This document shows positions 11,111-32,000 of a stretch of DNA of 32,000 bases, piece after piece. The position numbers and the translations under genes were made by a program. The DNA comes from Candidatus Saccharimonadota bacterium (GTDB taxonomy: Bacteria; Patescibacteriota; Gracilibacteria; BD1-5; UBA6164), in contig OZ245768.1 of assembly GCA_965227835.1 (NCBI GenBank), positions 1,380,001 through 1,412,000 of the forward strand. The letters run 5' to 3'. Numbering within the stretch: position 1 is the first letter of the stretch; every line of letters begins with the position of its first letter. The notes beneath the pieces were generated by a model. The model was given only the letters and a program-made list of their open reading frames with translations. It searched no databases and had not been told where the DNA came from.

Positions 11111-11401
11111 AACATTTATTTAAAATAATAAAAATAACTCTTTTAACCAATTTGGTTTTAATTTGAAAGAGATTTTATATAAAATATTAAAATATGCAAA
11201 AGTTTTCATTTTTTGTGTATTTTAAAAGGTAATATTAAATATTTTTATATCTATTTATATAAAAAGTATATATTGTTTTTTGACTTTTCTCACAAAACTA
11301 TTAGCCTGCTGTAAACAATAACTTTCAAGAAAAAATTAAAAAATCATCTCCTACTGCAATTTTTTCTTTTCAAAATATATTTAATAATTTCCAAATATTT
11401 T

Positions 11402-12265
11402 ATGAAAACTTCTATTTCTCATATCCCACAAGAAAATCAATTAGAGCTTTTGAAAGTAGTTGATTTAATCAGATGAGAATCAAAAAATAAATTAAAAGTT
11501 GAAATGATTATACTTTTTTGATCTTATGCTAGAGGAGAACAAGTTGTAAAAGATGTAGTTATGGAATGAAACAATAAATTGGAATATAGAAGTGATTTTG
11601 ATATTTTGGTTGTTACTAGAAAACCTTCTCAAGAGAGAAACCTAACTCTTTCTTATGAAATATCTAAAAAAATAAACCAAAGCAAAGAAATAAATACCCC
11701 AGTTAGTATTTTAATAGAAGATATATATCACATAAATGATAGATTAGGTGAAAATAGATATTTTTACTTAGATATTAAAAAGGAATGAATAATTTTATAT
11801 GATTCTTGAAAATGTATTCTTTGAGAAGCTAGAATATTAAGTGAGCAAGAGAAAATTGATTTACAAAAAGATGACTTTAATATGTGGTTTTTTTGATGAA
11901 AAAATTTTTTTAAATATTCAATAGATGCAATGGAGAAATGAAATTTAAATGATTCAGCTTTTTTACTCCATCAATCTGCAGAAAGGTATATATCAGCATT
12001 TTTACTAGTTTCAAATTGATATAAATCAAAAACACATGACCTACAAGTTTTATACAATAATATGATAAAACTTGATAAAGAATTTGAAACCTGGTTTGAT
12101 TTAGAAAATGAAAATAAATATTTTGTACTTTTGAAAAAAGCTTATGTAGATGCAAGATATTCCAAAAGTTATCAGATAAATAAGCAAGAAATCAAATATC
12201 TACATAAAAAAGTAGAGGTATTGGAAAGACTTGTTGAACAAAAATGCCTAAAAATTATCAATTAA
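11402..12265 (+). CDS. Fused minimal nucleotidyltransferase (MNT) plus HEPN domain protein
   Basis: N-terminal pol-beta-type NTase motif …ILFGSYARGEQ…SDFDILVV. The C-terminal helical HEPN-like domain has …FLLHQSAERYISAFLL… and …KKAYVDARYSKSY…. Track ORFs 11579-11788 and 12062-12265 are in the same frame. Confidence 0.75.
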
Positions 12266-12274
12266 CAAAAAATT

Positions 12275-12904
12275 ATGAAACCTAGAGAAAAACTTTTAAA
12301 ATATTGAGAGAAAAAATTGGAATGATGGGAATTAGTTGCTATTATATTATGATCTTGAATTAAATGACAAGATATATTCAAACTATCTAAGAAAACTTAC
12401 AAAATAATAAAAGAAAAAAGTGAAAATCTAAAAATGGAAAATCTTTTGGCAATAAAATGAATATGAAAAGTGAAGGCAATACAAATAATTTGAGCTTTTG
12501 AACTAGTAAATAGACATATTAACAAAGATTTTTTTTACATAAACTCTAGCAATGACATAATAGAATGTGTAAAAGATTACAGGGATAGAAAACAAGAATA
12601 TTTGCTCTGCATAACACTTGATTGAGCTAATAGATTTATAAAAAAAAGAATCATAACTATAGGTTTACTAAATGAAAGTTTGATACATCCAAGAGAGATA
12701 TTTTCTAGTGCTATAGAAGATAGAGCTAATAGCATAGTGGTTGTCCATAATCATCCTTCTTGAATGGCTGAACCATCAAAAGCTGATATAAATTCCACTA
12801 TAAGACTAAAAGAGGTTTCAAACACTATATGAATAAAACTATTAGATCATATAATAATAACAAAAAATAATTATTTTAGTTTTGCAGAAAATAACTTATT
12901 ATAA
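12275..12904 (+). CDS. radC: RadC-like JAB-domain protein
   Basis: N-terminal HhH-like region (…[21 protein letters not shown]…) and JAMM motif …[25 protein letters not shown]…. Confidence 0.85.
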
Positions 12905-12932
12905 TCCAATTTAATTTTTAAAAATATTTCTT

Positions 12933-13499
12933 ATGGAAAACATATCATCAAAAGAAGAAATAATGTCTTTGGTAGACAAATACTCTAATTCTACAAAACA
13001 GCATTTATTACAAGTTTGAACTATAATGCAATATTTCGCAGAAAAAATATGAGAAGACCCATTATACTGGTGGACAGTTTGAGTGTTACATGATATAGAT
13101 CGGGATTATGTAGAAAAAGATTCAAGCAGACACTTAAAAGATGATTTTGAAAAAATAATCTCTGAGATTAGTGTTTCTGAAAATATTATATGAGACATAA
13201 GATCACATGGTTATTTTTTGGATTGAATACAAGAAAATCCTGATAATTTAGTTAGAAAATATCTCTGTAGTATTGATGAGCTATCTTGATTTATTTGGGC
13301 ATATTTTCGTATGATACCAAGTGAAGATGTAATGGATATAAAATCAAAATCTATAAAAAAGAAACTTAAAGACAAGAGTTTTGCTGCTTGAGTTGACAGA
13401 GAAGAGGCAAGACAATGTGAAAAATTACTTGAAATATCAATTGATGAATTTATAGAAGACATAAAACTCGCTTTGAAAGATTGAAACTGGACTAAATAA
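12933..13499 (+). CDS. HD-domain hydrolase family protein
   Basis: …HLLQVGTIMQYFAEKIG…WWTVGVLHDIDRDY… (H…HD signature); 188 aa with TGA=Gly. Confidence 0.65.
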
Positions 13500-13710
13500 A
13501 AATTATAAAAGATATTTCTTATAATTTATACAAAGTTTGTAAATATAAATTTAGGATTTTAGAGCTTCAAAAATTTATAATTTAAAAGCATTTAAAAAAT
13601 TTTAAGTATTTAACAGAAGTTTATATGTTATCTAGAAAAGGGTTTTTTGAATAAAAACTTCTTTTTTAAACAATTTTTTTTTAAAGACCGTGGTAAAAGT
13701 AAGTTTTTTC

Positions 13711-13738
13711 TTGATTATATAAAACTACAAGTTAAAAT
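13711..13738 (+). promoter_or_regulatory. Candidate sigma-70-like promoter for gyrB (TTGATT-N16-TAAAAT)
   Basis: The hexamers at 13711-13716 and 13733-13738 lie 32 nt upstream of the gyrB ATG. Sequence pattern only. Confidence 0.3.
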
Positions 13739-13770
13739 AATCAAAAATTAATTCTTTATATTTTTAATTT

Positions 13771-15675
<1,905 letters not shown>

Positions 15676-16222: not shown

Positions 16223-16297
16223 TCCTCCGTAGCTCAGCGGTAGAGTAGATGGCTGTTAACCATTTGGTCACTGGTTCGAATCCAGTCGGGGGAGCCA
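16223..16297 (+). tRNA. tRNA-Asn (anticodon GTT), CCA encoded
   Basis: Cloverleaf folded by hand: acceptor TCCTCCG/CGGGGGA, anticodon loop CTGTTAA, T-arm ACTGG TTCGAAT CCAGT. Confidence 0.9.
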
Positions 16298-16303
16298 TAG
16301 AAC

Positions 16304-16368
16304 AGAACTTAGAATTGAGAATTATAAACAATACTTTAATTAAGTTTAAATTTTCAATTCTAAGTTCT
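16304..16368 (+). other. 15-bp perfect hairpin (AGAACTTAGAATTGA … TCAATTCTAAGTTCT) in the tRNA-Asn/tRNA-Ser spacer, followed by TTTT
   Basis: The arms at 16304-16318 and 16354-16368 are exact reverse complements with a 35-nt AT-rich loop. Confidence 0.6.
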
Positions 16369-16372
16369 TTTT

Positions 16373-16462
16373 GGAGAGATGGCTGAGTGGTCGAAGGCGA
16401 CGGTCTTGAAAACCGTTGTGTTACTTGTGACACCCAGGGTTCGAATCCCTGTCTCTCCGCCA
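16373..16462 (+). tRNA. tRNA-Ser (anticodon TGA, reads UCN), long variable arm, CCA encoded
   Basis: GGAGAGATGGCTGAGTGGTCGAAGGCG…CTTGAAA…GGTTCGAATCCCTGTCTCTCCGCCA. Confidence 0.9.
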
Positions 16463-16482
16463 ATTCAAAACTAAATTTTTGA

Positions 16483-16572
16483 GGAAGGGTGCCAGAGTGG
16501 CTGAATGGGCTCCCCTGCTAAGGGAGTGAACCCTTTCGGGTTCCGTGGGTTCGAATCCCATCCCTTCCGCCA
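16483..16572 (+). tRNA. tRNA-Ser (anticodon GCT), long variable arm, CCA encoded
   Basis: GGAAGGGTGCCAGAGTGGCTGAATGGG…CTGCTAA…GGTTCGAATCCCATCCCTTCCGCCA. Confidence 0.9.
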
Positions 16573-16586
16573 TTTTAATTCCTTAG

Positions 16587-16662
16587 GGGCCTGTAGCTCA
16601 GTGGTTAGAGCAGTTGGCTCATAACCAATTGGTCGTTGGTTCAATTCCAACCAGGCCCACCA
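16587..16662 (+). tRNA. tRNA with CAT anticodon (elongator Met type; lysidine-modified Ile2 not excluded)
   Basis: Acceptor GGGCCTG/CAGGCCC, anticodon loop CTCATAA. It lacks the initiator hallmarks (1:72 mismatch, three G-C pairs in the anticodon stem). Confidence 0.85.
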
Positions 16663-16699
16663 TAAAATTTGTTGTAAAACTAGTTTAAATTAAAAATTT

Positions 16700-16727
16700 T
16701 TGACAAAGAAAAATATTTTTATAAACT
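16700..16727 (+). promoter_or_regulatory. Candidate rrn promoter (TTGACA-N16-TAAACT)
   Basis: TTGACA at 16700-16705 and TAAACT at 16722-16727, followed by CCT, about 220 nt upstream of the 16S 5' end. Confidence 0.45.
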
Positions 16728-16870
16728 CCTCTTGCTTTTTCGGGGAGGCAGTATTTGTTTAAACATTTTTTAGCATAAGAATTAATGCTTTTAATTTTTT
16801 AAATACATATGATTTAGCTTGTTTGAAAGCATTGAGGGGATATATATAAAACAAGAATTTTTAAAATATC

Positions 16871-16883
16871 GTTCTTTAAAATA
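16871..16883 (+). promoter_or_regulatory. boxA-like antitermination element (GTTCTTTAAAATA) in the 16S leader
   Basis: It resembles the enterobacterial boxA TGCTCTTTAACAA. An identical 13-mer recurs in the 16S-23S spacer. Confidence 0.45.
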
Positions 16884-16949
16884 AACAAAATATTAGAAGA
16901 AAACTTTAAAAAACAATGTACTAAAAATTGAAACAAAATTCATTTTTTA

Positions 16950-18440
<1,491 letters not shown>

Positions 18441-18492
18441 TCATATTTTTAGTATATATAATGTTTTTTCTTCTAATATTTTGTTTATTTTT

Positions 18493-18505
18493 GTTCTTTA
18501 AAATA
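18493..18505 (+). promoter_or_regulatory. Second boxA-like element (GTTCTTTAAAATA) in the 16S-23S spacer
   Basis: Identical to 16871-16883. The spacer carries no tRNA. Confidence 0.45.
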
Positions 18506-18554
18506 CTTTGAATAAATAGAAATAGTTAGTAAATTTAGAATAATTAATAGTTTT

Positions 18555-21508
<2,954 letters not shown>

Positions 21509-21690
21509 TTAACAATTGTTTATTTTATTTGCTAGCTGTTTCTATTTATTCAATAATATTTTTAGTTTTTGTAAAATAATAAATTTTTTAAGTAATTTTT
21601 GAGAAATTTTAATACAAAAAACCTTTATTTTTTTAAGATAAACTTTCTATAACTTTTAGTTTAAATTTCAAAAAGATTTTGATGTTATTA

Positions 21691-21807
21691 TCTTGGTTGT
21701 TATAACGGTTGGGGTACACCTGTTCCCATCTCGAACACAGAAGTTAAGTCAACTAGTGCTTATGGTAGTGCATTTCGTAAATGTGCGAGAGTAGGTAGCA
21801 ATCAAGA
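21691..21807 (+). rRNA. rrf: 5S ribosomal RNA
   Basis: TCTTGGTTGTTATAACGGTTGGGGTACACCTGTTCCCATCTCGAACACAGAAGTTAAG…GAGAGTAGGTAGCAATCAAGA. The terminal helix pairs TCTTGGTTG with CAATCAAGA. Confidence 0.9.
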
Positions 21808-22116
21808 TTATGATATTAAAATAAATGTACTTTTGATTAGTTGTTAAAATTTTATATTGCAGTATATTTTAATTCTTTAGAGTGGATTTATATTTTTAAG
21901 TGTCAATTTTTTTAAAAATATAGCTATTTTAAAGTTTTAAATTCTATACTTTTATTTTTTCTAAAAATCAACTAATCATAAGTTTTAGTTTTTTAAGGAA
22001 ATTTTAAAGAATTTTTTAATACTTGATAAAATAATAAATTTTTTGGGGTCTCCTTAATAGTTCTTTCTTTTTTAGCTATAGCAGTTATTTTACTTTTACA
22101 ACTTTCTGCTCTATAA

Positions 22117-22192
22117 GCACGAGTAGCTCAGTTGGAAGAGCAGCGCCCTTCTAAGGCGAAGGTCACAGGTTCGAGCCCTGTCTCGTGTACCA
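22117..22192 (+). tRNA. tRNA-Arg (anticodon TCT), CCA encoded
   Basis: GCACGAGTAGCTCAGTTGGAAGAGC…CTTCTAA…GGTTCGAGCCCTGTCTCGTGTACCA. Confidence 0.9.
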
Positions 22193-22229
22193 TTTTAATT
22201 TGATAGTCTTATTTATTGATACTATATTT

Positions 22230-22306
22230 GGGTGATTAGCTCAGTTGGCGAGAGCATCTGCCTTACAAGCAGGGGGTCATAGGTTCGAATCCTATATCAC
22301 CCACCA
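22230..22306 (+). tRNA. tRNA-Val (anticodon TAC), CCA encoded
   Basis: GGGTGATTAGCTCAGTTGGCGAGAGC…CTTACAA…GGTTCGAATCCTATATCACCCACCA. Confidence 0.9.
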
Positions 22307-22447: not shown

Positions 22448-23630
22448 CCTGAATTAAACCCCGAAGTGCAATTTTTTAAATGAACTTAAAGAAGAAAATA
22501 TAGCATTAAGAAATTTTTTATTTTTGAGATTATAAAAAATTTTGTTATAATTCCAAATACAACATTAAGATTGTGAAAAGTGTGCTTGATTAGGGGAAAT
22601 AAATCAAAGTATTTCTCTAGGAGTATTTGCTAATATATCGCAAATACTTTTTATTTTTTCATCACTTACATAATCAAATATAGTTCATTTAGGAAAAAAT
22701 CTCCTGATAATCCTATTTAAATTCTCAACACTTCACTTCTGCCAAGAAGAATAAGGTTCACAAAAGTAAGTATCTATTCATATATCATTTAATAAATAAT
22801 GCTTAGCAAATTCCATTCAATTATCAAAAGTAACAGATTTAATTCATATATCATCTTTAACTCAAGCTATTAGATTAATTATATTTTCACTTGATTTATC
22901 TTTTATTTTAAAAATTTTAGGTAACCTAGTCTTTCTATCAACCAATGTAAGTATAGCTCATTTAAATCATTTTTTAGAAACAATTAAATCAGCTTCAATA
23001 TGTCATTTTTCTTCTCTGTTATTTATTGTTTCAGGTCTATTTTTAATACTAACTCTATTTTTAATTTTCACTCTTTCTGTTTGTTGTTTTTTCTTTCTAT
23101 AACCTTTATGTTTATATAATAATAGTTCTTTATATTTATTTCACATACCAGTTTCTAGCCAAGAATATATACTTGTATGGGAGATATGTTTCTTTTTATC
23201 TGTTTGAGTATTATTCCGTTTCTTAGCAATTGTTTTTGGGGACATTTGTATTTCTGTTATTGATAGTTGTTCTATTATGAAATTTTTCATATTAGTATTC
23301 ATATTTATCTTCATTGATTGAGTTTTTGTTAACCATCGTCTTTGATATGATTTGATTTCTGCTTCTAGTGCTAAATATACTTTTTTATTGTTTCATCGTT
23401 TTTTTACTGAATTTCTGTATATCTCTCTGCTTATTGTTGATTCTGATCTTTTTAGTATTGATGCTATATCTTTTTTCTTTAATCATTTATTTAAATGAAA
23501 TTCAATACTTTCTCTCTCTTGGAATATTAATTGTCAGTACATATCTTATTATATTAGAAAATAATGTTATTACCCTACGGGGAATACTATATTTTCTTCT
23601 CTTTTAATTGCACTTCATTTCTTACTTTGG
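22448..23630 (-). mobile_element. Intact IS30-family insertion sequence (about 1.18 kb)
   Basis: Single transposase ORF. Imperfect terminal inverted repeats share GAAGTGCAATT…AGAAGAAAATATAG (left 22463 onward; right, reverse complement, 23616 downward). GCCT occurs immediately outside both proposed ends (22444-22447 and 23631-23634), a possible target-site duplication. Boundaries are good to a few bp. Confidence 0.8.
22565..23542 (-). CDS. IS30-family DDE transposase (325 aa)
   Basis: Code-25 frame MYGQLIFQERESIEFHLNKGLKKKDIASILKRSESTISREIYRN… (HTH). Catalytic region …EEKGHIEADLIVSKKGFKGAILTLVDRKTR…SVTFDNGMEFAKH…FCEPYSSWQKGSVENLNRIIRRFFPKGT…LANTPREILGFISPNQ. It contains many in-frame TGA codons and is invisible in the standard-code track. 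Confidence 0.9.
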
Positions 23631-23675
23631 GCCTTTTTGAATACTATCAAATCGAATAAATCATGATAAATATAA

Positions 23676-25514
23676 ATGGCAATTTGAGAAATAAACATCA
23701 AGTGAGTAGTAAGTGATATCAAGAATACATCTGTGTATTATTCTGTTTTTGAATGAATTGTAAATGGTATTCATGCTTTTGAAAAATCATCAAAAGATAA
23801 ATGAAAAATTGATATTCAAGTTATTAGGAGTAATCAAACTAGATTATGAACATCAGAAGATGATTGACTAGAGGATATAGAATCTTTCATTATTTCCGAT
23901 AATTGAGTTTGATTCAATAGTGAAAACCAGAAATCTTTTCGAACATTTAAAAGTGACTATAAACTAGAAAGTCATTGAGGTAAATGATTTTGACGTTTTT
24001 TTTATCTAAAATTCTTTGAAAAAGTTAGTTTCGAAAGTGTTTATGAAGATGAATGAGAAAAAAAGAGAATCACTTTTTCTTTTGATATTAATGCAAATGA
24101 CATGATGTCTAATCCTGTCATCTCTGTAGTTGATAAAAATACTGAAACAGGCACAAAACTAAAATTACAAAGTTTAAAAAAGAAATATAGCACAAAACTT
24201 AATTCCCAAAGTAAGAAGATTCCAACTTTATGAAGAAAACTATTAGAACATTTATTAATGTACTTTGTAAATGACGATTTTAATTGTCCAGATATTGATA
24301 TTTTTGATTCTCATGATAGAGAGAATTTGAATAATATGATAGGAGAAAAAAAGGATATAAGTGTTATACACAATAATAAAATCTTCTTGAAGAAAAATGA
24401 AAAAAAAACCGAGGAAACAGAATTTTGATTTAAAATTTTTAAAGTGAAGTATTCAGTTGAGAGTAACACTATAAGCTTATGTGCACATAATAGAGTAGTA
24501 ATAGACGAAAATTTAGGTAAGTTCCTACCTGATTTTAACCAAAAATTAAAAGAAGTTTCAAATAAAAAAGAAAATAATTACGCAATTAAATGTTATATAT
24601 ACGGAAACTACCTTGATAATAATGTTGATACTGAGAGAGAAAGTTTCAACTTTATTAAGGATGATGAAATATTTGAGGGTGTAATTCTAGATAGAGATAT
24701 TTTCAATGCTGCTACGAAAGAAATAAAGAATTTATATCAGAACTTCTTAAAGTGTCAAAAAGAAATCAAAATAAATAATGTAAAGAGCTTTATAAACAAT
24801 AAAGCTCCTTGGTATAGTAGTTTATTTAAAAGCTTTGATTTTAATACTATTGATTCAAGCATATCTGAAGATATGTTGGATTCAAAATTTCATGAATTAA
24901 AATATACAAAAGAAAAGGAAACGAAACTAAAAACTAATACATTTGTAAAGAGTAGTGATTTCTCAAATAAAGATGAGATCAGAGATTTGGTATTATCTTT
25001 AGACGACCTTGTAAAAACTGATTTAGCTCATTATGTGGCAACAAGAAAATTTACACTTGATTTACTTGATAAATCTCTTGAATGGGATGAAAATACAAAG
25101 AAATATAAATCAGAAGATAGTCTACATACTATCATATTTCCAACTAAGAATGATACAGATACAGTAGATTACAAGGATCATAATATGTGGGTACTTGATG
25201 AAAAGTTAGCATTTTCTGACTATATATCATCTGATATTCCCTTAAATTCATGAAAATCCGAAAGAGGAGACGTGATTATTTTTGATAAAAAGATAGCTTT
25301 TCGATGAGAGAATAATAGTTCAAATCCTATTACTATATTTGAATTTAAAAAACCTTGAAGGGAAGATTTTGTAAATCCATCCTCACATGAAGACCCTATT
25401 CAGCAAATAATTAGGTATGCAAATAACATTGTTGATTGAAAATACAAAACTCCAAAGTGAAAAAATATTCAAGTTGCTGAAAATACACCCTTTTATTTCA
25501 ACACATCGGGATAA
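23676..25514 (+). pseudogene. 5' part (about 607 native codons) of a GHKL/Bergerat-fold ATPase with a C-terminal PD-(D/E)xK-like module, truncated by an IS200-type insertion
   Basis: Frame walked codon by codon from ATG 23676. N-box-like FEGIVNGIHA; G1 box ISDNGVGF (23898-23915 encodes DNGVGF); G2 box HGGKGFGRF (23976-23996 region). A long helical middle follows (the track ORF 24444-25253 is an internal piece). Then …HTIIFP…ERGDVIIFD…ITIFEFKKPGRED…QQIIRYANN…TPFY. The frame then runs into IS sequence and stops at TAA 25512-25514. Confidence 0.75.
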
Positions 25515-26189
25515 AAACCCCTATCTTTAGATAGTTAAGACACCGAAGGTGTAAGTGATAGAAATTGAATAAATGAGATGTGTTGTGACATAGGGTTTTA
25601 AACCCCGTTGCCTTCAGGCCGATTCTAAAGAAAAAAGTGTAAAAAATCAATAGAATAAATAAAATAGTGTTAAAAACTAACACTAGAGAGAATGAAATAC
25701 CAAAAAAGTAGTCATGCGACATATGATGTCAGATACCATATAGTATGGATAACAAAATACAGAAATCCATTCATGACAAAAGAGATACAAGATAGATTGG
25801 AAAAGATCATAAGATGAATAAGTAAAAAGCTATGAGTAATAATAATAAAGATATGAATGGAAGAAGATCATGTACATATGTATTGTAGGATACCGTTAAC
25901 TAAACCAATATCTACAATAGTATGACATATAAAGTGAGAAAGTTCTAAGGCAATAAAGAGGTATTTTTACAAAGAAATTAAGAGATGGTATTGGAAGACA
26001 TGAAATATATGGTGAGTATGATATTTTGTATCTAGTGTATGAGAGATAAATTGAGAAATAATATCTAATTATGTGGAACAACAGTGAGAAGAAGAGAATA
26101 AGATTGAAGAGATAGAGCTTTAAATTTCAGTACAAATAAAAGCCCCGTGCCTTCAGGCCGGGGTAGAAGAAAAGCTAAAACTTTTTTAC
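25497..26189 (+). mobile_element. IS200-type (IS200/IS605 family, tnpA only) insertion sequence, about 0.69 kb
   Basis: A Y1 transposase gene is flanked by subterminal hairpin-forming sequences: CCCCGTTGCCTTCAGGCCG at about 25604-25622 and CCCCGTGCCTTCAGGCCGGGG at about 26143-26163. Removing 25497-26189 rejoins the host reading frame (…PFY|GYVVC…). Ends uncertain by about 10 bp. Confidence 0.8.
25692..26123 (+). CDS. tnpA: IS200/IS605-family Y1 (HUH) transposase TnpA (143 aa)
   Basis: MKYQKSSHATYDVRYHIVWITKYRNPFMT…EEDHVHMYCRIP…GHIKGESSKAIK…WGVGYFVSSVGEINGEIISNYVEQQ: the HUH motif (HVHM) and the C-terminal Tyr-containing helix. At least ten in-frame TGA=Gly codons. Confidence 0.9.
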
Positions 26190-26436: not shown

Positions 26437-27057
26437 TTAACCAATTTCCTTAAAATAAAGCTTTTTTTCCAATATATACTCAACTATTTCTGGAATAAGA
26501 AATCTATTTAGTGCTTTTTGTAGATCTAGCTTATTTTTTCTTATCTCTTCTCTAACCATAGATGAAGAAATATCATTTTCACTTACCTGTTCTACCAGAT
26601 TAAAATTTTCTATATCTCTTGTATTAATAACATATCAAGGTCTTTCTATAATTATTTTTTTTAAAAACCTTTCTATATAAGAGTCTTTATTTCAAGACCA
26701 ATATTTTATGTCTGGTATTACATCAATTCAAAATATATGATAGGGAGAGTGTCCAAGTTTATCTTTGAAATATTCATCCACATTTACAGTATTTGTGTAT
26801 CAATTATTTTTTCATTCTAAAAAATGTGTATCTAGCTCTACATTTAGTCATTCATTTTTTAGATTTTCAAAAAATAATTCTATTAGCTTTAATTTATCAT
26901 TATCATTTATTCAATAGTTTTTATCTAACCTTTTTCAATCAGGTGTTAGTATTATTTTATCTATACAAGAATTATTTAATACTTTTTTTATTATGCTTTT
27001 ATGTCATAGATGAGGAGGGTTAAAAGCTCATCAGTATATTGCTATATTTGTTTTCAT
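26437..27057 (-). CDS. nadD: Nicotinate-nucleotide adenylyltransferase
   Basis: MKTNIAIYGGAFNPPHLGHKSII… ((H/T)xGH motif) and a C-terminal …ISSSMVREEI… (ISST-like motif); 206 aa. Confidence 0.88.
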
Positions 27058-27063
27058 ATTTTT

Positions 27064-27897
27064 TTATTTGGTTTTAAATCCTTGTTCTTCTAGTTCTCTG
27101 CTACTCCATATATTTAAATAACTTGTTGGTATTAAGAAAGTTATTTTCTCTTCATAACTTTTTACCTCTACACTAAATTCTTCTCACTTTGGAATATCTT
27201 CTATTTTTTCTCAATCACAATTTATTTGCATAGGATTAAGCCTTCAAACATTTTTTACTTCTATTAAATTATGACTAGGTACAAGAATTGACGTACTAGG
27301 ACAGTTGGAAGGTGCTTTTGGAGTTATTCCAATTAAATCAGTATTATGACGGATTATGGTTCATCCTAAGCTTTTATTGTATGCAGTAGATCATATTCAA
27401 GAGTATATAATAGCTCAGTCTCATCTTAATGATTTATTAAACTTTAAAGGTGAAATGAAACTTTGTGAGTCTAAATTTCTTAAATATTCGGTAACTTCTA
27501 TTAAAATGTCTACAGGTCTTCAACTATTTGCTCTTATATCTACTTCATTTACAGCTATAGTTTCTTTGGATCCACTTTTTGTATTTACAAAGATTTTTAA
27601 TATTTGTAACTTTTTTTCTACATATAGGCTTCAATCATTCACATATTCCTTTTCATTTAGTAAATATCATTTATTTCAAAAGTTTATTCACAAAAAAGGT
27701 AAACTCCTGCTATGATTTTCTTTTATTGCTCTTATCATTGTACCATCTCATCATAAAACTATAACTACATCTTTTTTTATAGAATCAATTATAGTTGCTA
27801 TATTTGCAGGTTCTAAAAAACTTCTTAATTCATTGTTTTTCTCAAAAGAATAATCATCGTAACATACAATGCTATTTCATATTTTCCTAGTTTCCAT
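27064..27897 (-). CDS. nadK: NAD+ kinase
   Basis: …VVIVLGGDGTMIRAIK… (GGDGT), …GINFGNKGYL…, …NEVDI…, …GDGAIIYSGIGSTAYNKSLGGTII…; 277 aa. Confidence 0.88.
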
Positions 27898-27925
27898 AAT
27901 TAAACAGATTAAATATAAACTTTAT

Positions 27926-28846
27926 TTACTCATATAATATAATATTTCTTATTAGATCTGACATTTCTAAAACTTTCATATTTGGTGTATTTTTAGCTCT
28001 TTCTATATTTGTTGGTATTGAGTCAGAGACAATTAACTCATCTACTTCTTGTGCCACTTTTTTATGAGAGTTTTCAGGGAATACTCAGTGAGGAATATAT
28101 ACTCTTACACTTTTTGCTCACTTTTCTCTTAGTTTATTAACTGCCTCTATTACTGTTCATCCTGTTTGAATTAGGTCGTCTATTATTAGAATATCTTTTC
28201 ATTCAGGATTTCACTCTTTTATCCATATCTTTCTTTTATCTCACTCTAATCTTCTTTTTTCACAAACTATTTTTTCAAAATCTTTAAATTGAGGATTAAA
28301 TCTCTTATATGCTCATTCATCTGGAAAAGCTATTTGTACATTTTCTTCAATTTCTTCTTTGATCAAATGCATAGTAGTGTGAAGTTCTGGATTTATTCTG
28401 TCTAAGTTGAAATAATTTCTTGTTCATAAATCGTGTATATCAAAAATATGTATAGAATTTTTTTTATCTCTTCCTGGTGGTATACTAGAAATTAAATCTG
28501 CAAAAATTTTAGCAGTTATTACTCTTCATCTTACATCTTCTTTTTCCATTGTTCAACAAGGAAAAAATGGCATTATTATACGAAGTTTATCAGCATTATT
28601 TGATACTATAGTTGATAATATAGATAAATGATCAAACATAGTTTTCCTTTCAGAAAAATCTCATATATATGTTACATCTTTGTGTTCTATATATTTTTCT
28701 GTTTCTTCTAACAAAAAATTAGGCCACTTATCTTTGAATAGATCCTTTTGGACTTTTCATATGTTTATACCTCTCTCTTTTCAAAAACATTTTGGTAATT
28801 CTTTAGAAATATGAGAAAATTTCTCATCTATTATAACTGTTTTCAT
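27926..28846 (-). CDS. prs: Ribose-phosphate diphosphokinase (PRPP synthetase) family protein
   Basis: …LRIIMPFFPCGTMEKED…, …IHIFDIHDLGTRNYF…, …IAFPDEGAYKRF…, and the PRPP loop …DILIIDDLIQTGGTVIEA…; 306 aa. Divergent N-terminus. Confidence 0.75.
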
Positions 28847-28854
28847 ATATTTTT

Positions 28855-30630
28855 TTATTGTTTTAAAATTAAATTTTTTAGTTTTTTATATTTTTCTCAA
28901 AAATAAACTGGGTTTTGGGCTTCTCTATATTCAAATCAAAAACTTGATTTACTTATAGTGAGTATTGGTGGAGACTGGACCCTTTTAAAATAGTTTATAT
29001 TTAATAGATTCCATATTTTTTCAATTTCTTCTATAAATTTATTTTCATTTTCAAAGTAACTGGATATTTCTTGGGGTATTCATAAAAATTCTTTTAGTTC
29101 TCATTTTAGATACATATCAAGTATATCTGCTGGTTCTTTTTTCTTTTCTATGAGTGCTTGGTTAAGTTTTGATGTAAATTCATAGTTGAATGGATCTCAA
29201 TTTCAAGATTCTACATCTTGTTTATCACTTAGTTCCGCACTTGGGACTATATCTATTATACCTTGTGGTATAAGTTCTCCATATTTTTTATTTATGTATT
29301 TTGAAAGTTCATATACTTGTGTTTTATATAAATCTCAAAGTACGCAGAATGCTCATGCTACATCTCAATATAGTGTTGCATATCATAGAGCTATTTCATC
29401 TTTATTTCCATTGTTTGTAAAAACGGCTCATATATTACTTGCCATATCTGCTAGTATTTGTCACCTTTCTCTGGCTTGTATATTTTCTATTTCAAAATCT
29501 GTGGGTGCTTTTCAGCTTGTTTGTGTTATTTGTTTTATTTTTAGATCTATTGATTCTTGTATTGGAAATATCTTATATTCTACTCAGAGTTTTTGGGCAC
29601 ATTCTTGAGCTAGGTTTTTTGTGGTTTTTGAATTAAACTTAGAGGGCATATTTATGGTAAAAACATTTTTGCTTCATAGTGCAATGGTACATAGTGCGGC
29701 ACTTAATGCACTGTCTATTCAACCACTTAGTCATATAACAACTTTTTCTTGAGATATATTTTTCATATACTCTCTTATGTAGTATATACTTGTTTCAAGT
29801 ATTTGCTCTAGCTCGTTTTTTTCTTCATCAATTGTGGCATTTTCTTCTTTTGTATAGTCCTTTATTCATTGCAGTTTTTTTCAGTTTTCATATATACTAC
29901 TTCCTCATTCAAATATAAATACATTTTTTCAGTTATTTTGTTGTCATATAGGATTTACATAGGCTAGCTTGCCTTTTCTGCTAGCTTTTTTTAATATCCT
30001 ATTTCTCATGTCAAATTTATTTAATCCAAATGGTGATGCTGATGGTACAGCTATTAAATCTGGGCTATGTTTTCTTGTTAGTTTTACAGGGTCTATATTG
30101 TAATCTCCATTTATATTCCATATATCTTCGCATATAAGTACAGACACTTTTGTTATAACTCAGTTTATTTCTATTTCTATTGGTTTGTAATACTGTTCTA
30201 GTGGTTTTTGTTCTTCTTTTGCCAAGGTTTGAAGAGAAGTAAAATATCTTTTGTCATCAAACATACGATAGTTTGGTAAAAGTGTTTTGTGTACTTTTCC
30301 TAGTAGTTTTCAGTTTTGGCTTATAAATGCTGTGTTGTATTTTCTTATACTCCCATCTTCATTTTTCTTTCTTTCGTCAATATCTATATTTCCCCATATT
30401 CAGGCTATCCCATTTTCATCTAATATTTGTATTATTCTCTGGTTTATCTCTCTGCACTCTTTTACAAAACTATCCCTTAACCATCTATCTCAGATCATAT
30501 ATCAGGGTATACACATTTCTGGTAGGATTAAAAGTCATCATTTTGGAGTTTTTTTTGCCATTTCTTCAACTCATTTTAGATTTCTTTCGGGATCTCATGC
30601 ATATACCTGCATTTGTCATAATTTTATCAT
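28855..30630 (-). CDS. nadE: Glutamine-dependent NAD+ synthetase (CN-hydrolase plus synthetase domains)
   Basis: N-terminal nitrilase-type domain (MIKLGQMQVYAGDPERNL…LPEMCIPGY…VLICEDIWN…). C-terminal N-type ATP-PPase domain (…VVIGLSGGIDSALSA…NKDEIALGYATLYGDVAG…VPSAEL…). The track ORF 29944-30147 is an internal piece, and the plus-strand ORFs 29186-29636 are antisense artefacts. Confidence 0.92.
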
Positions 30631-31709
30631 AGTCTTTGTATTATTATATTTTTAAAATCATTTGCCACTGTTTCTATTTCTTCAAAGTTTTCTAAGTTTT
30701 CTATGTAGTATCTTTCTGGCATTTCTCAACTTAAAGCTCAAACCATATTTCATACTATTGATCAATAGCTATCAGTATCTCATCATATGCTTACTGAATC
30801 TATTATTGCTTGAAAACTTTGTTCTCTTAAAAATATACAGTAGGTTATTGCCAGTGTTGTAGCTATTTGTCCGGATTTTTTTATATCGTCTCCCCATCAA
30901 AAATTTTCTAATATTTCATCATCACTTATTATAAGTTTTCATTTTTTTGAAAATTCTTTCATTTTCTCAAATATTTGTCTAATTTTTGCAAGTTCTTGTC
31001 ATTCCAAAGTGTCTTTTTCTGGAGCTGATTTTTTATCTGTCAATTCTTCGTAAGTTCTTATTTTTCTAGTCATATATTCTAAAAATTCTCACACATTTAT
31101 ATTTCAATTGCTATTTAGAATATATCTAAAACCTATATCATGTATAATGCTTGCCAGTTTTTGAGGGTAGCTGTTGTGTGTTAATCTGGTAAAATCAATG
31201 ATTTCTCTATTTGGTGCCTCCCAAAGTGTAAGAGGTGCTTGTTTCATCATAATTCCACATCACATAGAACTACTTTCTATACTTAATAGTTTGTTTATGT
31301 CTTTGTATTCTCTAAAGTGTTTTATAGCTTTTCTCGTAGCTCCTCAAAATCCATATGGAAATTTGTCATAACCTTGCATTGTTTTTTCCATAATATCATA
31401 TAAATCTATTGTCTTTTTTTCTGTAATGGATTTCATAACTGCCATAGTAAGAATTGTATCGTCTGATATTTTTCATACTTCTTTTGATGATAATTCTAAT
31501 CCAGCTTTTATGAAGTAAGTATTCCATCATGAAGGCAGGTAAAAATCTATTTTTGAAGAGCTTTTATGCAGAATGTCTTGTATTTCTTGTTTTGTTTTCG
31601 TTTCTACTGGTAATCATAGTGCATCTCATACTGCTCAGTTTATAAGTATTGCCGGTATTTTTTCTGCTTTTTTTAACTCAAAGTTTTTACTTCCTATTTT
31701 ATCTTTCAT
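30624..31709 (-). CDS. ADP-ribosylglycohydrolase (ARH/DraG) family protein
   Basis: …AILINGAVGDALGLPVE… near the N-terminus and …SVSIGGDTDSYGSIVGNMVGALSG… near the C-terminus, the two metal-binding signature regions of the family. 361 aa. It ends cta tga taa, overlapping the nadE ATG. Confidence 0.8.
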
Positions 31710-31729
31710 TTGATTTGGTGTTTAATGAT

Positions 31730-32000
31730 TTAAACTAAAACCTCATTTTTTTTCATTCAATTCACTCAAAAAATTCTTTTAAACCTTTCAACTCTATTTT
31801 CTTCTCCCATAGCTTTTTCTGGATTATCTGATAATTTTACAGCAGATTCTCATCCTGCTTGAGTAACTTTACATACTTGAGAGAAAGCTCTAAATCCAGG
31901 TATTTCTGATGCTATTCATTTACAATCATTTGTAGTCATAGTTCACATAGCTTGTGGTAATCTCATTATTCTACTTGATAATTCTCTTACATTTTGTACT
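31730..32000 (-). CDS. pncB: Nicotinate phosphoribosyltransferase, C-terminal fragment (5' end outside window)
   Basis: …AMGTMTTNDCKG…FSQVCKVTQAGGESAVKLSDNPEKAMGEENRVERFKRIF… parallels the PncB C-terminus (FGIGTxLTxD … KPVAKLSDSPGKT…). Only 89 codons are visible. Confidence 0.6.

What the first reader, a model, noticed from the sequence alone, without database searches (positions are those of the whole stretch)
26437..32000. Six-gene NAD salvage super-operon with an embedded ADP-ribosylglycohydrolase
On the minus strand the order is pncB (3' end), ARH-family hydrolase, nadE, prs, nadK, nadD. The genes are packed with gaps of 6-28 nt and one 7-nt overlap, so this is almost certainly one transcript. 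Together they encode the complete Preiss-Handler route: nicotinate plus PRPP to NaMN, NaAD, NAD and NADP, including the PRPP supplier. Finding every step in one operon is unusual, and an ADP-ribosylglycohydrolase translationally coupled to nadE is not part of the textbook pathway. It suggests coupling between reversal of ADP-ribosylation (or O-acetyl-ADP-ribose/ADP-ribose turnover) and NAD resynthesis in a reduced-genome organism. A more speculative alternative is worth testing. The divergent Prs-like enzyme and the type II PRTase could act on ADP-ribose-derived substrates, as in the phage NAD-reconstitution pathway where a Prs homologue pyrophosphorylates ADP-ribose.
Basis: partly seen in the sequence, partly recalled or inferred. 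Interest (0 to 1): 0.65.

Follow-up and report, generated by a model that had tools for sequence, protein, structure and literature searches.

The report
NAD salvage operon with embedded ADP-ribosylhydrolase
A recoded (UGA=Gly) candidate-phylum bacterium packs its whole nicotinamide/nicotinate-to-NAD(P) recycling pathway, a plant-type PRPP synthase and an intact ADP-ribose-releasing hydrolase into one tight gene cluster; the pathway is ordinary, but the hydrolase recurs beside NAD-rebuilding genes in many unrelated bacteria, and I found no paper describing that link.

Summary
Table 11 shows almost no genes here. On the minus strand lie the pncB 3' end, ARH, nadE, prs-like, nadK and nadD, with gaps of 20, -7, 8, 28 and 6 nt.

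In the closest relative (L001) the cluster continues upstream with pncA, an unknown gene and a full-length pncB.

The "divergent Prs" is not a phage-type Adps. It fails the published Adps sequence rules. It matches the recently defined Class II/IV PRPP synthases (RF-loop GTMEK/GTMER, no FLAG-region Glu, shortened C-terminus), and members of both classes were shown to make PRPP from ribose-5-phosphate.

All-in-one NAD clusters with this prs are common in Gracilibacteria and other CPR phyla, so the "super-operon" itself is not unusual.

The ARH is real. All invariant catalytic residues are present, dN/dS is 0.15, and its overlap with nadE is conserved. It recurs inside NAD clusters in at least five CPR lineages. 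In other bacteria ARH sits inside NrtR-regulated Adps-Namat (NARP1-type) operons together with Macro, NADAR and KptA.

Best reading: ARH frees ADP-ribose from ADP-ribosyl conjugates or O-acetyl-ADP-ribose, so that both halves of consumed NAD are recycled. This role is inferred, not shown.

The parts
31730..32000 (-). 3' end of pncB (nicotinate phosphoribosyltransferase): last 89 codons plus stop. The gene runs off the window.
   Evidence: NCBIfam PRK05321 positions 331-396/398, E 4e-11. ~95% identical to the C-terminus of the 481-aa L001 PncB, which has NAPRTase_N + NAPRTase domains.
30624..31709 (-). ARH: ADP-ribosylglycohydrolase-family hydrolase, 361 aa, 19 UGA-Gly codons.
   Evidence: PF03747 E 2e-32. 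All invariant family residues present: D29, E36, D83, D84, T85, T177, H178, D311, D313, S314. dN/dS 0.149 against L001. Ortholog model has an ARH fold, TM 0.90 to MJ1187.
28855..30630 (-). nadE: glutamine-dependent NAD+ synthetase, 591 aa. Its start overlaps the ARH stop by 7 nt (ATGATAA).
   Evidence: PF00795 + PF02540; TIGR00552 at 144.5 bits (cutoff 63.65). The overlap is conserved in L001. dN/dS 0.058.
27926..28846 (-). prs: Class II-like (Class II/IV pair) PRPP synthase, 306 aa.
   Evidence: TIGR01251 at 131 bits (cutoff 113). Best PDB relatives are all canonical PRPS. RF loop GTMEK, FLAG FKDKW (no Glu), canonical DDLIQTGGT loop, short C-terminus. Class definitions and activity from PMC13252144.
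27064..27897 (-). nadK: NAD kinase, 277 aa.
   Evidence: PF01513 + PF20143, both above gathering score; GGDG motif present.
26437..27057 (-). nadD: nicotinate-mononucleotide adenylyltransferase, 206 aa. Last gene of the cluster.
   Evidence: PF01467 above cutoff; best NCBIfam hit TIGR00482; GGAFNPPHLGH motif. Followed by an IS200-type transposase gene at 25692-26123.

Best explanation
This is the 3' six genes of an at least eight-gene NAD recycling operon of an Absconditabacteria-type (code 25) bacterium. The order in the close relative L001 is pncA - X246 - pncB - ARH - nadE - prs - nadK - nadD.

Mechanism:
- Nicotinamide is deamidated by PncA.
- Nicotinate is joined to PRPP by PncB to give NaMN.
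- NadD adenylates NaMN to NaAD.
- Glutamine-dependent NadE amidates NaAD to NAD.
- NadK makes NADP.
- PRPP comes from the operon's own Class II-type PRPP synthase, a branch with a remodelled ATP/regulatory loop. Characterised relatives make PRPP from ribose-5-phosphate.

These steps follow from family assignments and conserved motifs.

The inferred step concerns ARH. It is an active Mg/Mn-dependent hydrolase that releases free ADP-ribose from ADP-ribosylated substrates or O-acetyl-ADP-ribose, i.e. from the non-nicotinamide half of consumed NAD. ADP-ribose would then be cleaved by a Nudix ADP-ribose pyrophosphatase to AMP plus ribose-5-phosphate, which feeds Prs. The Nudix is encoded in the cluster in most relatives but not locally here. 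The operon would thus rebuild NAD from both of its breakdown products, in organisms that may lack a pentose-phosphate route to ribose-5-phosphate.
For: Gene identities, code 25 and spacing.

Upstream pncA and full-length pncB in L001.

Prs is a PRPP synthase, not Adps:
- Canonical TGGT loop, aliphatic residue at Adps position F221, retained DSIP C-terminal segment.
- 64-78 bits to canonical PRPS against 41-52 bits to Adps.
- GTMER-type RF loop, no FLAG Glu and a short C-terminus, matching Class II/IV. Representatives of both classes made PRPP from R5P + ATP.
- In 22 Gracilibacteria loci the gene directly upstream is a MazG-Apt fusion, a PRPP consumer.

Cluster conservation: 18 of 33 code-25 loci and 9 other-CPR loci have this prs beside pncA/pncB/nadE/nadK/nadD, usually with Nudix and NrtR.

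ARH is functional and non-accidental:
- Invariant residues are intact; dN/dS is 0.15 and the nadE overlap is conserved.
- It recurs in NAD clusters of Gracilibacteria (L010, prs-ARH with a 2-nt gap), Parcubacteria (L054, ARH-prs-nadE), Buchananbacteria (L071, pncA-ARH-nadD-Nudix-pncB), and an ACD 'gcode 4' bin (L004, NMNAT-Nudix-ARH-NrtR-PARG).
- All 3 ARH genes in the prs-seeded loci lie within 2 genes of a core NAD gene, against 149 of 1080 for background genes; rough P 0.003.

Functional precedent: in other bacteria ARH sits in NrtR-PncA-Adps-Namat-NadE-ARH (L147) and NrtR-Adps-NADAR-Macro-KptA-ARH-phosphoesterase-ARH-Namat (L146).

Literature: Rodionov 2008 proposed ADPR -> Rib-P -> PRPP as the rationale for prs in NrtR regulons. 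A closed Gracilibacteria genome lacks the pentose-phosphate pathway.
Against: - ARH's substrate is unknown. Sequence and fold place it equally near MJ1187 (uncharacterised), a Listeria ART-immunity ARH, ARH3 and DraG.
- No Nudix box or Nudix homolog occurs in the window or in the 21 kb of L001, so the ADPR-to-R5P step is not encoded locally.
- No sirtuin or ADP-ribosyltransferase was seen in the 32 kb window, so the source of ARH's substrate is unidentified.
- ARH is absent from most Gracilibacteria NAD clusters (3 of 79 prs-seeded loci). Two relatives of this ARH lie outside NAD contexts: L003 in a defence-island-like setting and P0008 in a phage-like setting.
- Whether this prs is the genome's only PRPP synthase could not be checked.
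- Co-transcription is inferred from spacing only.
Confidence: 0.62

Rival explanations
1. ARH is a repair or immunity enzyme. It removes ADP-ribose put on the cell's own proteins or nucleic acids by foreign ADP-ribosyltransferases (phage, prey or competitor toxins). It is co-expressed with NAD resynthesis because such attacks also drain NAD: 'de-modify and refill' rather than metabolic recycling.
For: Iyer/Aravind 2022 predicted ARG-centred systems, lacking a linked transferase and regulated by ADPR-sensing Nudix-HTH factors, as counter-measures to viral ADP-ribosylation. The second-best structural match is a Listeria ART-ARH effector-immunity pair. One ortholog (L003) lies among MmeI, OLD-family and AAA_15 genes. 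L146 combines ARH with Macro, NADAR and a phosphoesterase, as in those systems.
Against: No PADLOC defence family matches the ARH. In the window the gene is translationally overlapped with housekeeping nadE and has a dN/dS similar to its neighbours, not the rapid evolution typical of conflict genes. This reading overlaps with the best explanation, since the freed ADP-ribose could still be recycled.
Confidence: 0.2
2. ARH is a DraG-like regulatory switch. An NAD-pathway enzyme (for example NadE or NadK) or another target is reversibly ADP-ribosylated, and ARH reactivates it.
For: DraG is among the closest named families (TIGR02662, E 4e-15). The tight coupling to nadE (7-nt overlap) is conserved.
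Against: No DraT-like transferase is present in the window, in L001 or in any of the ARH-containing NAD clusters examined. The TIGR02662 score (55.7 bits) is far below its cutoff (337). ARH's neighbour differs between lineages (nadE, prs, nadD, Nudix, Namat), which argues against one specific protein partner.
Confidence: 0.07
3. A deamidated NARP1-like shortcut. The Prs-like enzyme pyrophosphorylates ADP-ribose released by ARH. The PncB-like enzyme joins ADPR-PP to nicotinate to give NaAD directly. NadE finishes to NAD.
For: No Nudix is encoded locally to turn ADPR into ribose-5-phosphate. ARH accompanies genuine Adps-Namat pairs elsewhere. Class II PRPS has lost adenine-specific contacts in the site that ADP-ribose occupies in Adps. 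L147 (NrtR-PncA-Adps-Namat-NadE-ARH, no NadD seen) hints that a deamidated NARP1 might exist somewhere.
Against: The Prs-like protein fails every sequence rule for Adps: Thr217-Gly-Gly-Thr rather than a remodelled loop, Val rather than Phe221, retained C-terminal segment, and closer to canonical PRPS than to Adps. The Adps genes of L146 and L147 pass these rules. The window clade matches classes shown to make PRPP from R5P. nadD, needed only if NaMN is an intermediate, is in the operon. The PRTase is PncB-family, not Nampt/Namat. The same prs sits next to Apt in 22 loci.
Confidence: 0.05
4. ARH is a passenger: a gene that landed in the operon by chance and has no functional tie to NAD metabolism.
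For: ARH is absent from most syntenic Gracilibacteria clusters. IS elements flank the operon in both the window and L001.
Against: Independent recurrence in at least five CPR lineages and in non-CPR NARP1-type operons, at different positions within the clusters. Purifying selection and a conserved translational overlap. Enrichment test P ~0.003.
Confidence: 0.06

Closest known systems
NrtR-regulated NAD salvage operons (Rodionov et al. 2008, PMC2330246), e.g. nrtR-pncA-pncB-nadD-nadE in Clostridium acetobutylicum
   Same: Same enzymes in one operon (PncA, PncB, NadD, NadE). prs is co-regulated with NAD salvage in some genomes. The ADPR -> ribose-5-P -> PRPP rationale is already proposed there. 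Gracilibacteria relatives of this cluster carry Nudix and NrtR genes.
   Different: No NrtR or Nudix gene in the window or in L001. nadK and a Class II-type prs are included. An ARH gene is embedded, which that work does not list.
NARP1 (Adps + Namat), the phage NAD reconstitution pathway, and its bacterial homologs (bioRxiv 2024.02.11.579819; PMC12774641; PMC13586617)
   Same: A PRPS-fold enzyme and a type II PRTase sit together in an NAD-rebuilding gene cluster. [quoted passage not shown] ARH accompanies genuine bacterial Adps-Namat modules (L146, L147).
   Different: Here the PRPS-fold enzyme has the canonical ribose-5-P loop and lacks the Adps signatures. The PRTase is PncB-type, not Nampt/Namat-type. 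NadD and NadE are present, so the standard NaMN -> NaAD -> NAD route is encoded.
Class II / Class IV PRPP synthases (Karki, Meller & Cunningham 2026 preprint, PMC13252144; plant Class II enzymes)
   Same: RF-loop xTMER motif with Thr replacing the Arg96 equivalent; FLAG-region Glu absent (Class II pattern); C-terminal filament interface missing; catalytic His, Lys, DD and TGGT retained. The phyletic spread matches: CPR, Desulfobacterota, metazoa.
   Different: The motif reads GTME(R/K) rather than TTMER or STMER. Assignment to II versus IV rests on two motifs, not on their phylogeny. The activity of this bacterial branch is untested.
ARG(ARH)-centred ADP-ribose-processing systems with Nudix-HTH or WYL regulators (Iyer et al. 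2022, PMC9503650, section 3.8)
   Same: An ARH without a linked transferase. Association with ADPR-sensing NrtR-like regulators, Macro, NADAR and phosphoesterases in relatives (L004, L141, L146, L166).
   Different: In the section read, those systems were described with phosphatases, chaperones and nucleases, not NAD-synthesis enzymes. The window's ARH sits among biosynthetic genes with no regulator, chaperone or effector.
Characterised ARH enzymes: DraG, ARH3, Listeria ART-ARH immunity protein, MJ1187
   Same: Same fold and the same binuclear-metal ligand set.
   Different: Only 17-25% identity. No DraT or ART partner. Substrate class cannot be assigned.

Membership tests
Adps (NARP1 ADP-ribose pyrophosphokinase) | Remodelled PP loop used to bind donor ATP (ICP1 C215-D216-G-A218-A219-S220; non-Thr at position 217) followed by an aromatic lid residue, Phe221 | tested here: not met
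   The window has I-Q-T-G-G-T then Val, like E. coli I-D-T-G-G-T then Leu. ICP1, Thrax4, L146 and L147 Adps all have non-Thr at 217 and Phe at 221. Rule taken from PMC13586617.
Adps (NARP1 ADP-ribose pyrophosphokinase) | Loss of the C-terminal alpha11-alpha12 region of PRPS | tested here: not met
   The window clade keeps the DSIPxN...NMxVL...LI segment that aligns to E. coli DTIPLS...NVRTLTLSGMLAEAI. Only the last ~12 residues are missing.
Adps (NARP1 ADP-ribose pyrophosphokinase) | Adjacent Namat (Nampt-family) gene (97% of Adps-clade members, per bioRxiv 2024.02.11.579819) | tested here: not met
   No ORF in the window, L001 or any of the 79 prs-seeded loci was labelled Namat in the reference searches. 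The adjacent PRTases are PncB-family.
Adps (NARP1 ADP-ribose pyrophosphokinase) | Closer in sequence to Adps than to cellular PRPS | tested here: not met
   phmmer: 77.8 bits to E. coli Prs and 64-69 bits to other canonical PRPS, against 51.7 (Thrax4) and 41.1 (ICP1) bits to Adps.
PRPP synthase Class II/IV | RF-loop xTMER motif with Thr replacing the PRPS1 Arg96 equivalent | tested here: met
   GTMEK in the window; GTMER in 65 of 79 clade members. Definition from PMC13252144.
PRPP synthase Class II/IV | FLAG-region Glu (PRPS1 E39): absent in Class II, retained in Class IV | tested here: met
   FSDGE aligns to FKDKW in the window. The common clade variants have W, T, F, Y or M at this position, which is the Class II pattern; one member, P0081, keeps Glu (FDDGE).
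PRPP synthase Class II/IV | C-terminal filament-stacking interface absent | tested here: met
   The clade ends ~12 residues before the canonical ...SNEESISAMFE tail.
PRPP synthase Class II/IV | Catalytic residues conserved (His of DxH, catalytic-loop Lys/Arg, DD, TGGT ribose-5-P loop) | tested here: met
   H, D, K, DD and TGGT are all conserved at the mapped positions. TIGR01251 scores above its cutoff.
PRPP synthase Class II/IV | Makes PRPP from ribose-5-phosphate | not testable with these tools
   Shown for amphioxus Class II and Corallochytrium Class IV enzymes. Here it is supported only by context: Apt and PncB as neighbours.
ADP-ribosylglycohydrolase (ARH, PF03747) | Profile match above the curated threshold | tested here: met
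   113.4 bits against a cutoff of 26.2. phrog_6572 at 95 bits.
ADP-ribosylglycohydrolase (ARH, PF03747) | Binuclear-metal and catalytic residues (GDxxGxxxE, SDDT, GGDxD[ST]) | tested here: met
   D29, E36, D83, D84, T85, D311, D313 and S314 fall in invariant or near-invariant columns of a 22-sequence alignment.
ADP-ribosylglycohydrolase (ARH, PF03747) | All-helical ARH fold | tested here: met
   By proxy. The window protein could not be submitted. The model of ortholog P0002 (~40% identical) has pLDDT 90; Foldseek gives TM 0.90 to MJ1187 and 0.7-0.84 to ARH3 and DraG.
ADP-ribosylglycohydrolase (ARH, PF03747) | Substrate class (Arg-, Ser-, O-acetyl-, 1''-phospho-ADP-ribose) | not testable with these tools
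   Sequence and fold ranking do not discriminate between classes.
DraG (ADP-ribosyl-dinitrogenase reductase hydrolase) | Equivalog-level score and a DraT partner | tested here: not met
   TIGR02662 at 55.7 bits against a cutoff of 337. No DraT-like gene in any context examined.
PncB-type nicotinate phosphoribosyltransferase | NAPRTase_N + NAPRTase catalytic domains | tested here: met
   Only the last 89 residues are in the window (E 4e-11 to PRK05321). The ~95%-identical L001 ortholog has both Pfam domains and aligns to 4-396 of 398 of PRK05321 at 290.8 bits, below the 379-bit subfamily cutoff.
Namat (nicotinamide ADP-ribose transferase) | Nampt-family core with an adenine 'selectivity clamp' | tested here: not met
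   The window fragment and its L001 ortholog best match PncB-type NAPRTase models (PRK05321/TIGR01514) in NCBIfam and the NAPRTase domains in Pfam. In the reference searches these ORFs are labelled pncB, not Namat.
NrtR regulon | NrtR (Nudix-WHD) regulator gene in or beside the cluster | tested here: not met
   Absent from the window and L001. Present in many Gracilibacteria relatives and in L002/L004. NrtR binding sites were not searched.

The most novel reading that the evidence does not exclude
The ARH-containing NAD clusters, this one included, are cellular NAD-reconstitution systems that recover ADP-ribose from ADP-ribosylated macromolecules or O-acetyl-ADP-ribose. In this lineage no Nudix is encoded locally. 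The Class II-type PRPS, whose adenine-specific contacts are relaxed, would pyrophosphorylate ADP-ribose directly, and PncB would condense ADPR-PP with nicotinate to NaAD, which NadE amidates. This would be a deamidated counterpart of phage NARP1 operating in a free-standing bacterial genome.
Probability: 0.06. Interest if true: 0.85.

Novelty: new variant of a known kind. Interest (0 to 1): 0.45.

Why it matters
NAD-consuming enzymes (sirtuins, ADP-ribosyltransferases, NADases of defence systems) always yield nicotinamide plus an ADP-ribose moiety. Salvage of the nicotinamide half is textbook. How cells recover the ADP-ribose half is much less clear, and direct ADPR-to-NAD rebuilding (NARP1) has so far been framed mainly as a phage counter-defence.

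The recurrent placement of an ADP-ribose-releasing hydrolase inside NAD-rebuilding operons points to a widespread cellular "recycle both halves" strategy. It appears here beside a Preiss-Handler route with a Class II PRPP synthase. Elsewhere it appears beside genuine Adps-Namat pairs together with Macro, NADAR and KptA, under ADPR-sensing NrtR.

For ultra-reduced CPR bacteria, some of which lack a pentose-phosphate pathway, ADP-ribose could be a significant source of ribose-5-phosphate.

The finding also gives a physiological context for the newly defined Class II/IV PRPP synthases in bacteria. The pathway itself is ordinary, and the ARH role remains an inference.

Tried and rejected
- Table-11 ORF listing shows nothing. 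All proteins had to be translated with code 25 and pasted in as letters.
I used homologs P0001-P0004 for context and P0002 as a structural proxy.
- The promoter/terminator scan was uninformative in this AT-rich DNA.
- The window ARH has no PADLOC match. The Prs-like protein gives only weak generic PRTase hits.
- The Foldseek and PDB sequence rankings do not resolve ARH substrate class.
- NARP3 was checked as a possible analogue. It is PnuC + NadR, so unrelated.
- Literature searches for ARH together with NAD salvage operons found nothing. The NARP1 papers do not mention ARH or NrtR.
- The MMBR PRPP review (PMC5312242) is not held.
- P0008-type ARH contexts are phage-like, not NAD-linked.
- The weak radical-SAM neighbour of ARH in L002 and L054 has no counterpart in the window.
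- X246 of L001 is at best a degenerate isochorismatase-fold protein without the catalytic Cys. It lies outside the window.
- I could not test whether a second, canonical prs exists in the genome, because no tool retrieves whole genomes.
- The genome scan's back-translated patterns miss UGA-encoded Gly, so Absconditabacteria are under-sampled among the related loci.

Full report
**1. Observation**

With the standard bacterial code, the region 26,437-32,000 has no long minus-strand ORFs. Reading UGA as a sense codon raises total ORF length in the window (ORFs of at least 100 aa) from 2,276 aa to 12,779 aa.

UGA falls on invariant glycines of well-known motifs: nadD YGGAFNPPHLGH, nadK GGDGT, nadE GLSGGIDS and prs TGGT. 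The genome therefore uses code 25 (UGA=Gly), the code of Absconditabacteria (SR1) and Gracilibacteria. The window also carries a complete rRNA operon and six tRNA genes and has about 25% G+C outside the rRNA operon.

Under code 25 the minus strand carries these genes:

| Gene | Coordinates | Length |
|---|---|---|
| PRTase gene, last 89 codons | 31999..31730 | 89 aa (partial) |
| ARH | 31709..30624 | 361 aa |
| nadE | 30630..28855 | 591 aa |
| prs-like | 28846..27926 | 306 aa |
| nadK | 27897..27064 | 277 aa |
| nadD | 27057..26437 | 206 aa |

Pfam and NCBIfam confirm every family. The promoter scan equals its shuffled background, and no terminator-like site lies on the minus strand within the cluster. 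A single transcript is therefore plausible but not shown.

**2. Extent and boundaries**

The ARH has a ~94%-identical ortholog on a 52-kb ENA contig (L001). That protein was deposited under code 4, which is why it scored 89%.

In L001 the order is: Band-7/SPFH protein, pncA (isochorismatase family; best NCBIfam hit is nicotinamidase), an unknown 246-aa gene (X246), a full-length 481-aa pncB with both NAPRTase domains, then ARH, nadE, prs, nadK and nadD, followed by a transposase gene. The window's 89-residue fragment is ~95% identical to the C-terminus of that PncB. So the operon has at least eight genes and includes nicotinamidase.

In the window the 3' end is followed by an IS200-type TnpA gene (25692-26123), an unannotatable 612-aa ORF and an IS30-like gene. 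No Nudix box or NrtR homolog occurs in the window or in L001.

Comparing window and L001 gene by gene gives these dN/dS values: pncB fragment 0.25, ARH 0.15, nadE 0.06, prs 0.13, nadK 0.27, nadD 0.15. The ATGATAA overlap of the ARH stop with the nadE start is conserved. ARH is thus under the same purifying selection as its neighbours.

**3. What the Prs-like protein is**

Its best solved relatives are all canonical PRPP synthases. Its homologs, however, form a tight clade at 42-53% identity, mostly Gracilibacteria and Altimarinota, with a sharp score drop to ordinary Prs. A genome scan extended the clade to other CPR phyla, to Desulfobacterales and Desulfovibrionales, and to some Gammaproteobacteria. 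Sea urchins carry an intron-bearing copy on a 37.9-Mb chromosome.

I retrieved the Adps-Namat pairs of Bacillus phage Thrax4 and Vibrio phage ICP1. ICP1 Adps is the enzyme whose structures define the Adps rules (PMC13586617). All 16 published ICP1 positions map correctly.

- The window clade keeps the canonical T-G-G-T ribose-5-phosphate loop. Adps has G-A-A-S (ICP1) or Y-G-G-T (Thrax4).
- It has Val/Ile/Leu where both Adps have the lid residue Phe221.
- It retains the C-terminal DSIP... segment that Adps lacks.
- It scores 64-78 bits against canonical PRPS but only 41-52 bits against Adps.
- Adps genes found later in bacterial operons (L146, L147) do carry the Adps signature, so the rule discriminates.

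The clade's own peculiarities are Thr in place of the conserved RF-loop Arg (GTMEK/GTMER), no FLAG-region Glu (FKDKW instead of FSDGE) and a truncated C-terminus. These match the Class II/Class IV PRPP synthases defined in a 2026 preprint (PMC13252144). In that work Class IV has STMER and affinity to CPR. Class II has TTMER, lacks the FLAG Glu, and has affinity to Thermodesulfobacteria and metazoa. Recombinant representatives of both classes made PRPP from ribose-5-phosphate and ATP.

Context agrees with this assignment. In 22 Gracilibacteria loci the gene immediately upstream of this prs is a MazG-adenine phosphoribosyltransferase fusion (NCBIfam apt, 198 bits against a cutoff of 125). Apt is another PRPP consumer.

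I conclude that the gene encodes a Class II-type PRPP synthase. The activity of this particular branch remains untested.

**4. How unusual is the operon?**

It is not very unusual.

- Of 33 code-25 loci carrying this prs, 18 have at least one core NAD gene within 10 kb and 16 have two or more. The typical order is pncA pncB .. prs. nadE nadK. NMNAT Nudix NrtR nadD.
- Nine loci from Uhr-, Moran-, Parcu-, Falkow- and Buchananbacteria and related CPR groups show prs next to pncB, nadE or nadK.
- NrtR-regulated pncA-pncB-nadD-nadE and prs-nadV operons were described in 2008. That paper explicitly suggested that Nudix cleavage of ADP-ribose supplies ribose-5-phosphate to Prs (PMC2330246).

**5. The ARH**

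The window ARH retains every invariant position of a 22-sequence alignment of divergent homologs: D29 and E36 of GDALGxPVE, D83-D84-T85 of SDDT, T177-H178, and D311, D313 and S314 of GGDTDS.

The window protein could not be submitted for structure prediction. A model of its Absconditabacterales ortholog P0002 (pLDDT 90) has the ARH fold. The closest structure is MJ1187 (TM 0.90), followed by a Listeria ART-ARH immunity protein, ARH3 and DraG. Substrate class cannot be read from this.

ARH orthologs recur inside NAD clusters of independent lineages:

- Gracilibacteria L010: prs-ARH with a 2-nt gap, then nadD-coaE, nadE and nadK.
- Parcubacteria L054: ARH-prs-nadE.
- Buchananbacteria L071 (standard code): pncA-ARH-nadD-Nudix-pncB, divergent from NadM-like/Nudix-prs-nadE.
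- An ACD 'gcode 4' bin, L004: NMNAT-Nudix-ARH-NrtR-PARG.
- More loosely, Absconditabacterales L002, with nadD-coaE and NrtR 2-5 kb downstream.

In the prs-seeded loci, all three ARH genes lie within two genes of a core NAD gene, against 149 of 1,080 background genes. The rough hypergeometric P is 0.003 and ignores phylogeny.

Counter-examples exist. L003 is a defence-island-like context, and P0008-type ARHs are in phage-like contigs.

**6. Reverse test**

I seeded a metagenome scan with the ARH alignment. It returned mostly distant ARHs from standard-code bacteria. Ten of the 80 loci carry NAD- or ADPR-related genes. The most telling are:

- L147: NrtR - PncA - Adps - Namat-like - NadE - ARH.
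- L146: NrtR - Adps - NADAR - Macro - Tpt1/KptA - ARH - calcineurin-like phosphoesterase - ARH - Namat.
- L140: ARH - Namat.
- L098: Nudix - ARH, with a Namat-like gene 7 kb away.

So ARH, along with the other known families of ADP-ribose-releasing enzymes, is repeatedly placed between or beside enzymes that rebuild NAD from ADP-ribose, under an ADPR-sensing regulator. The NARP1 papers I read do not mention ARH or NrtR. A full-text search for ARH together with NAD salvage operons found nothing. The Aravind-lab survey describes ARG-centred systems with Nudix-HTH regulators, phosphatases, Macro and NADAR. In the section I read, it does not link them to NAD-synthesis genes.

**7. Mechanism**

*Shown by sequence.* A complete nicotinamide/nicotinate -> NaMN -> NaAD -> NAD -> NADP enzyme set is present, with its own PRPP synthase and an intact ARH, all tightly packed and conserved.

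*Inferred.* ARH liberates free ADP-ribose from ADP-ribosyl conjugates or O-acetyl-ADP-ribose. A Nudix enzyme, clustered in most relatives but not local here, converts ADP-ribose to AMP and ribose-5-phosphate. The Class II PRPS then turns ribose-5-phosphate into PRPP for PncB. At least one closed Gracilibacteria genome lacks the pentose-phosphate pathway (PMC6851277), which would make this ribose source valuable.

*Rivals.*
- A repair or immunity role against foreign ADP-ribosylation. This overlaps with the main model.
- A DraG-like regulatory switch. No transferase partner was found.
- The deamidated NARP1-like shortcut. It fails the Adps tests, and nadD is present.
- A passenger gene. This is disfavoured by recurrence and purifying selection.

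**8. Verdict**

The pathway and the PRPP synthase are ordinary members of known kinds, and the NARP1-like alternative is not supported for this locus.

The embedded ARH is a genuine, recurrent and, as far as I could find, undescribed accessory of NAD-rebuilding operons. I rate it a new variant of a known kind, with moderate interest (0.45).

**Caveats**
- The ARH structure rests on a 40%-identical proxy.
- Absconditabacteria are under-sampled, because the scan's back-translated patterns miss UGA-encoded Gly.
- No whole-genome inventory was possible.
- All functional statements about ARH are inferences from context.

Noticed in passing
L147:571-5845 (metagenome contig Ga0123354_10035132): The operon reads NrtR - PncA (isochorismatase) - Adps (DDISSYGGTF signature) - Namat-like - NH3-type NadE - ARH, with no NadD/NMNAT seen on the 7.8-kb contig. 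PncA and NadE alongside Adps and a Namat-like enzyme suggest a possible deamidated NARP1: nicotinate + ADPR-PP -> NaAD -> NAD.
   Followed up: partly
L146:2989-10420 (metagenome contig Ga0308157_10002958): The operon reads NrtR - Adps - NADAR - Macro - Tpt1/KptA - ARH (279 aa) - calcineurin-like phosphoesterase - ARH (337 aa) - Namat. Every major family of ADP-ribose-releasing enzyme sits between the two NARP1 enzymes. L140 shares the phosphoesterase-like - ARH - Namat end.
   Followed up: partly
P0094/P0095; L095:3001-18022: Sea urchins (Lytechinus, Diadema) encode a 39-41% identical member of this otherwise bacterial Prs clade. It is a ~15-kb, evidently intron-bearing gene on a 37.9-Mb chromosome and shares the GTMER and DDLIQTGGT motifs. 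This is consistent with the metazoan Class II PRPS described in PMC13252144.
   Followed up: partly
L001:7770-8510 (gene X246, between pncA and pncB; outside the window): A 246-aa protein with no Pfam or NCBIfam hit. It shows weak colinear similarity to PncA and to Pyrococcus nicotinamidase (E ~0.001-0.01), but the catalytic Cys motif (ATDVCV) is replaced by LENRGA. It may be a degenerate isochorismatase-fold paralog.
   Followed up: partly
window 22565-26123; L001:15479-16444: Mobile elements sit at the operon's 3' end in both relatives: IS200-type TnpA and an IS30-like gene in the window, a DDE_Tnp_1 transposase in L001. The operon's orientation relative to the L25 - HEPN - RadC - HD - GyrB block (window 10493-15675) differs between the two, which indicates an IS-associated rearrangement.
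   Followed up: no
window 23676-25514 (+): A 612-aa ORF between the two IS elements has no Pfam or PADLOC match.
   Followed up: partly
L002:11140-12060 and L054:156-1118: A weak radical-SAM-like gene lies directly next to ARH in two distant lineages (Absconditabacterales and Parcubacteria). The two proteins are only weakly related (E ~3e-8). There is no counterpart in the window.
   Followed up: partly
L009-L040 (22 Gracilibacteria loci): A conserved local module reads TrmB-family regulator - (x) - MazG-Apt fusion - Class II prs. A TrmB-like regulator also sits next to the prs paralog in the Gammaproteobacteria MAG loci (L052, L055, L066, L075, L078).
   Followed up: partly
L048, L053, L059-L061, L067, L068, L080 (Desulfobacterales): In these larger genomes the Class II-type prs paralog is followed by an ~867-aa protein that resembles a PlsB-type acyltransferase by eye (not profile-tested). 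No NAD genes are nearby, so its role there is unexplained.
   Followed up: no
L004:1127-5255 (ACD 'gcode 4' bin): The cluster reads NMNAT - Nudix (YffH/AdpP-like) - ARH (8-nt overlap) - NrtR-like - bacterial-type PARG. It is an ADP-ribose-processing and NAD cluster containing two different ADP-ribose glycohydrolase families.
   Followed up: partly
window 16223-22306: A complete rRNA operon (16S-23S-5S) flanked by six tRNA genes (Asn, Ser x2, Met; Arg, Val). At 34-46% G+C it stands out against a background of ~25%. None of the six is a UGA-reading tRNA-Gly(UCA).
   Followed up: no
L089-L092 (contexts of P0008): A related ARH subfamily sits in phage-like contigs (T4 endonuclease V-like Pyr_excise, many small ORFs, VWA protein, IS605 OrfB). 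ARHs of this broad group therefore also travel on mobile or viral elements.
   Followed up: no
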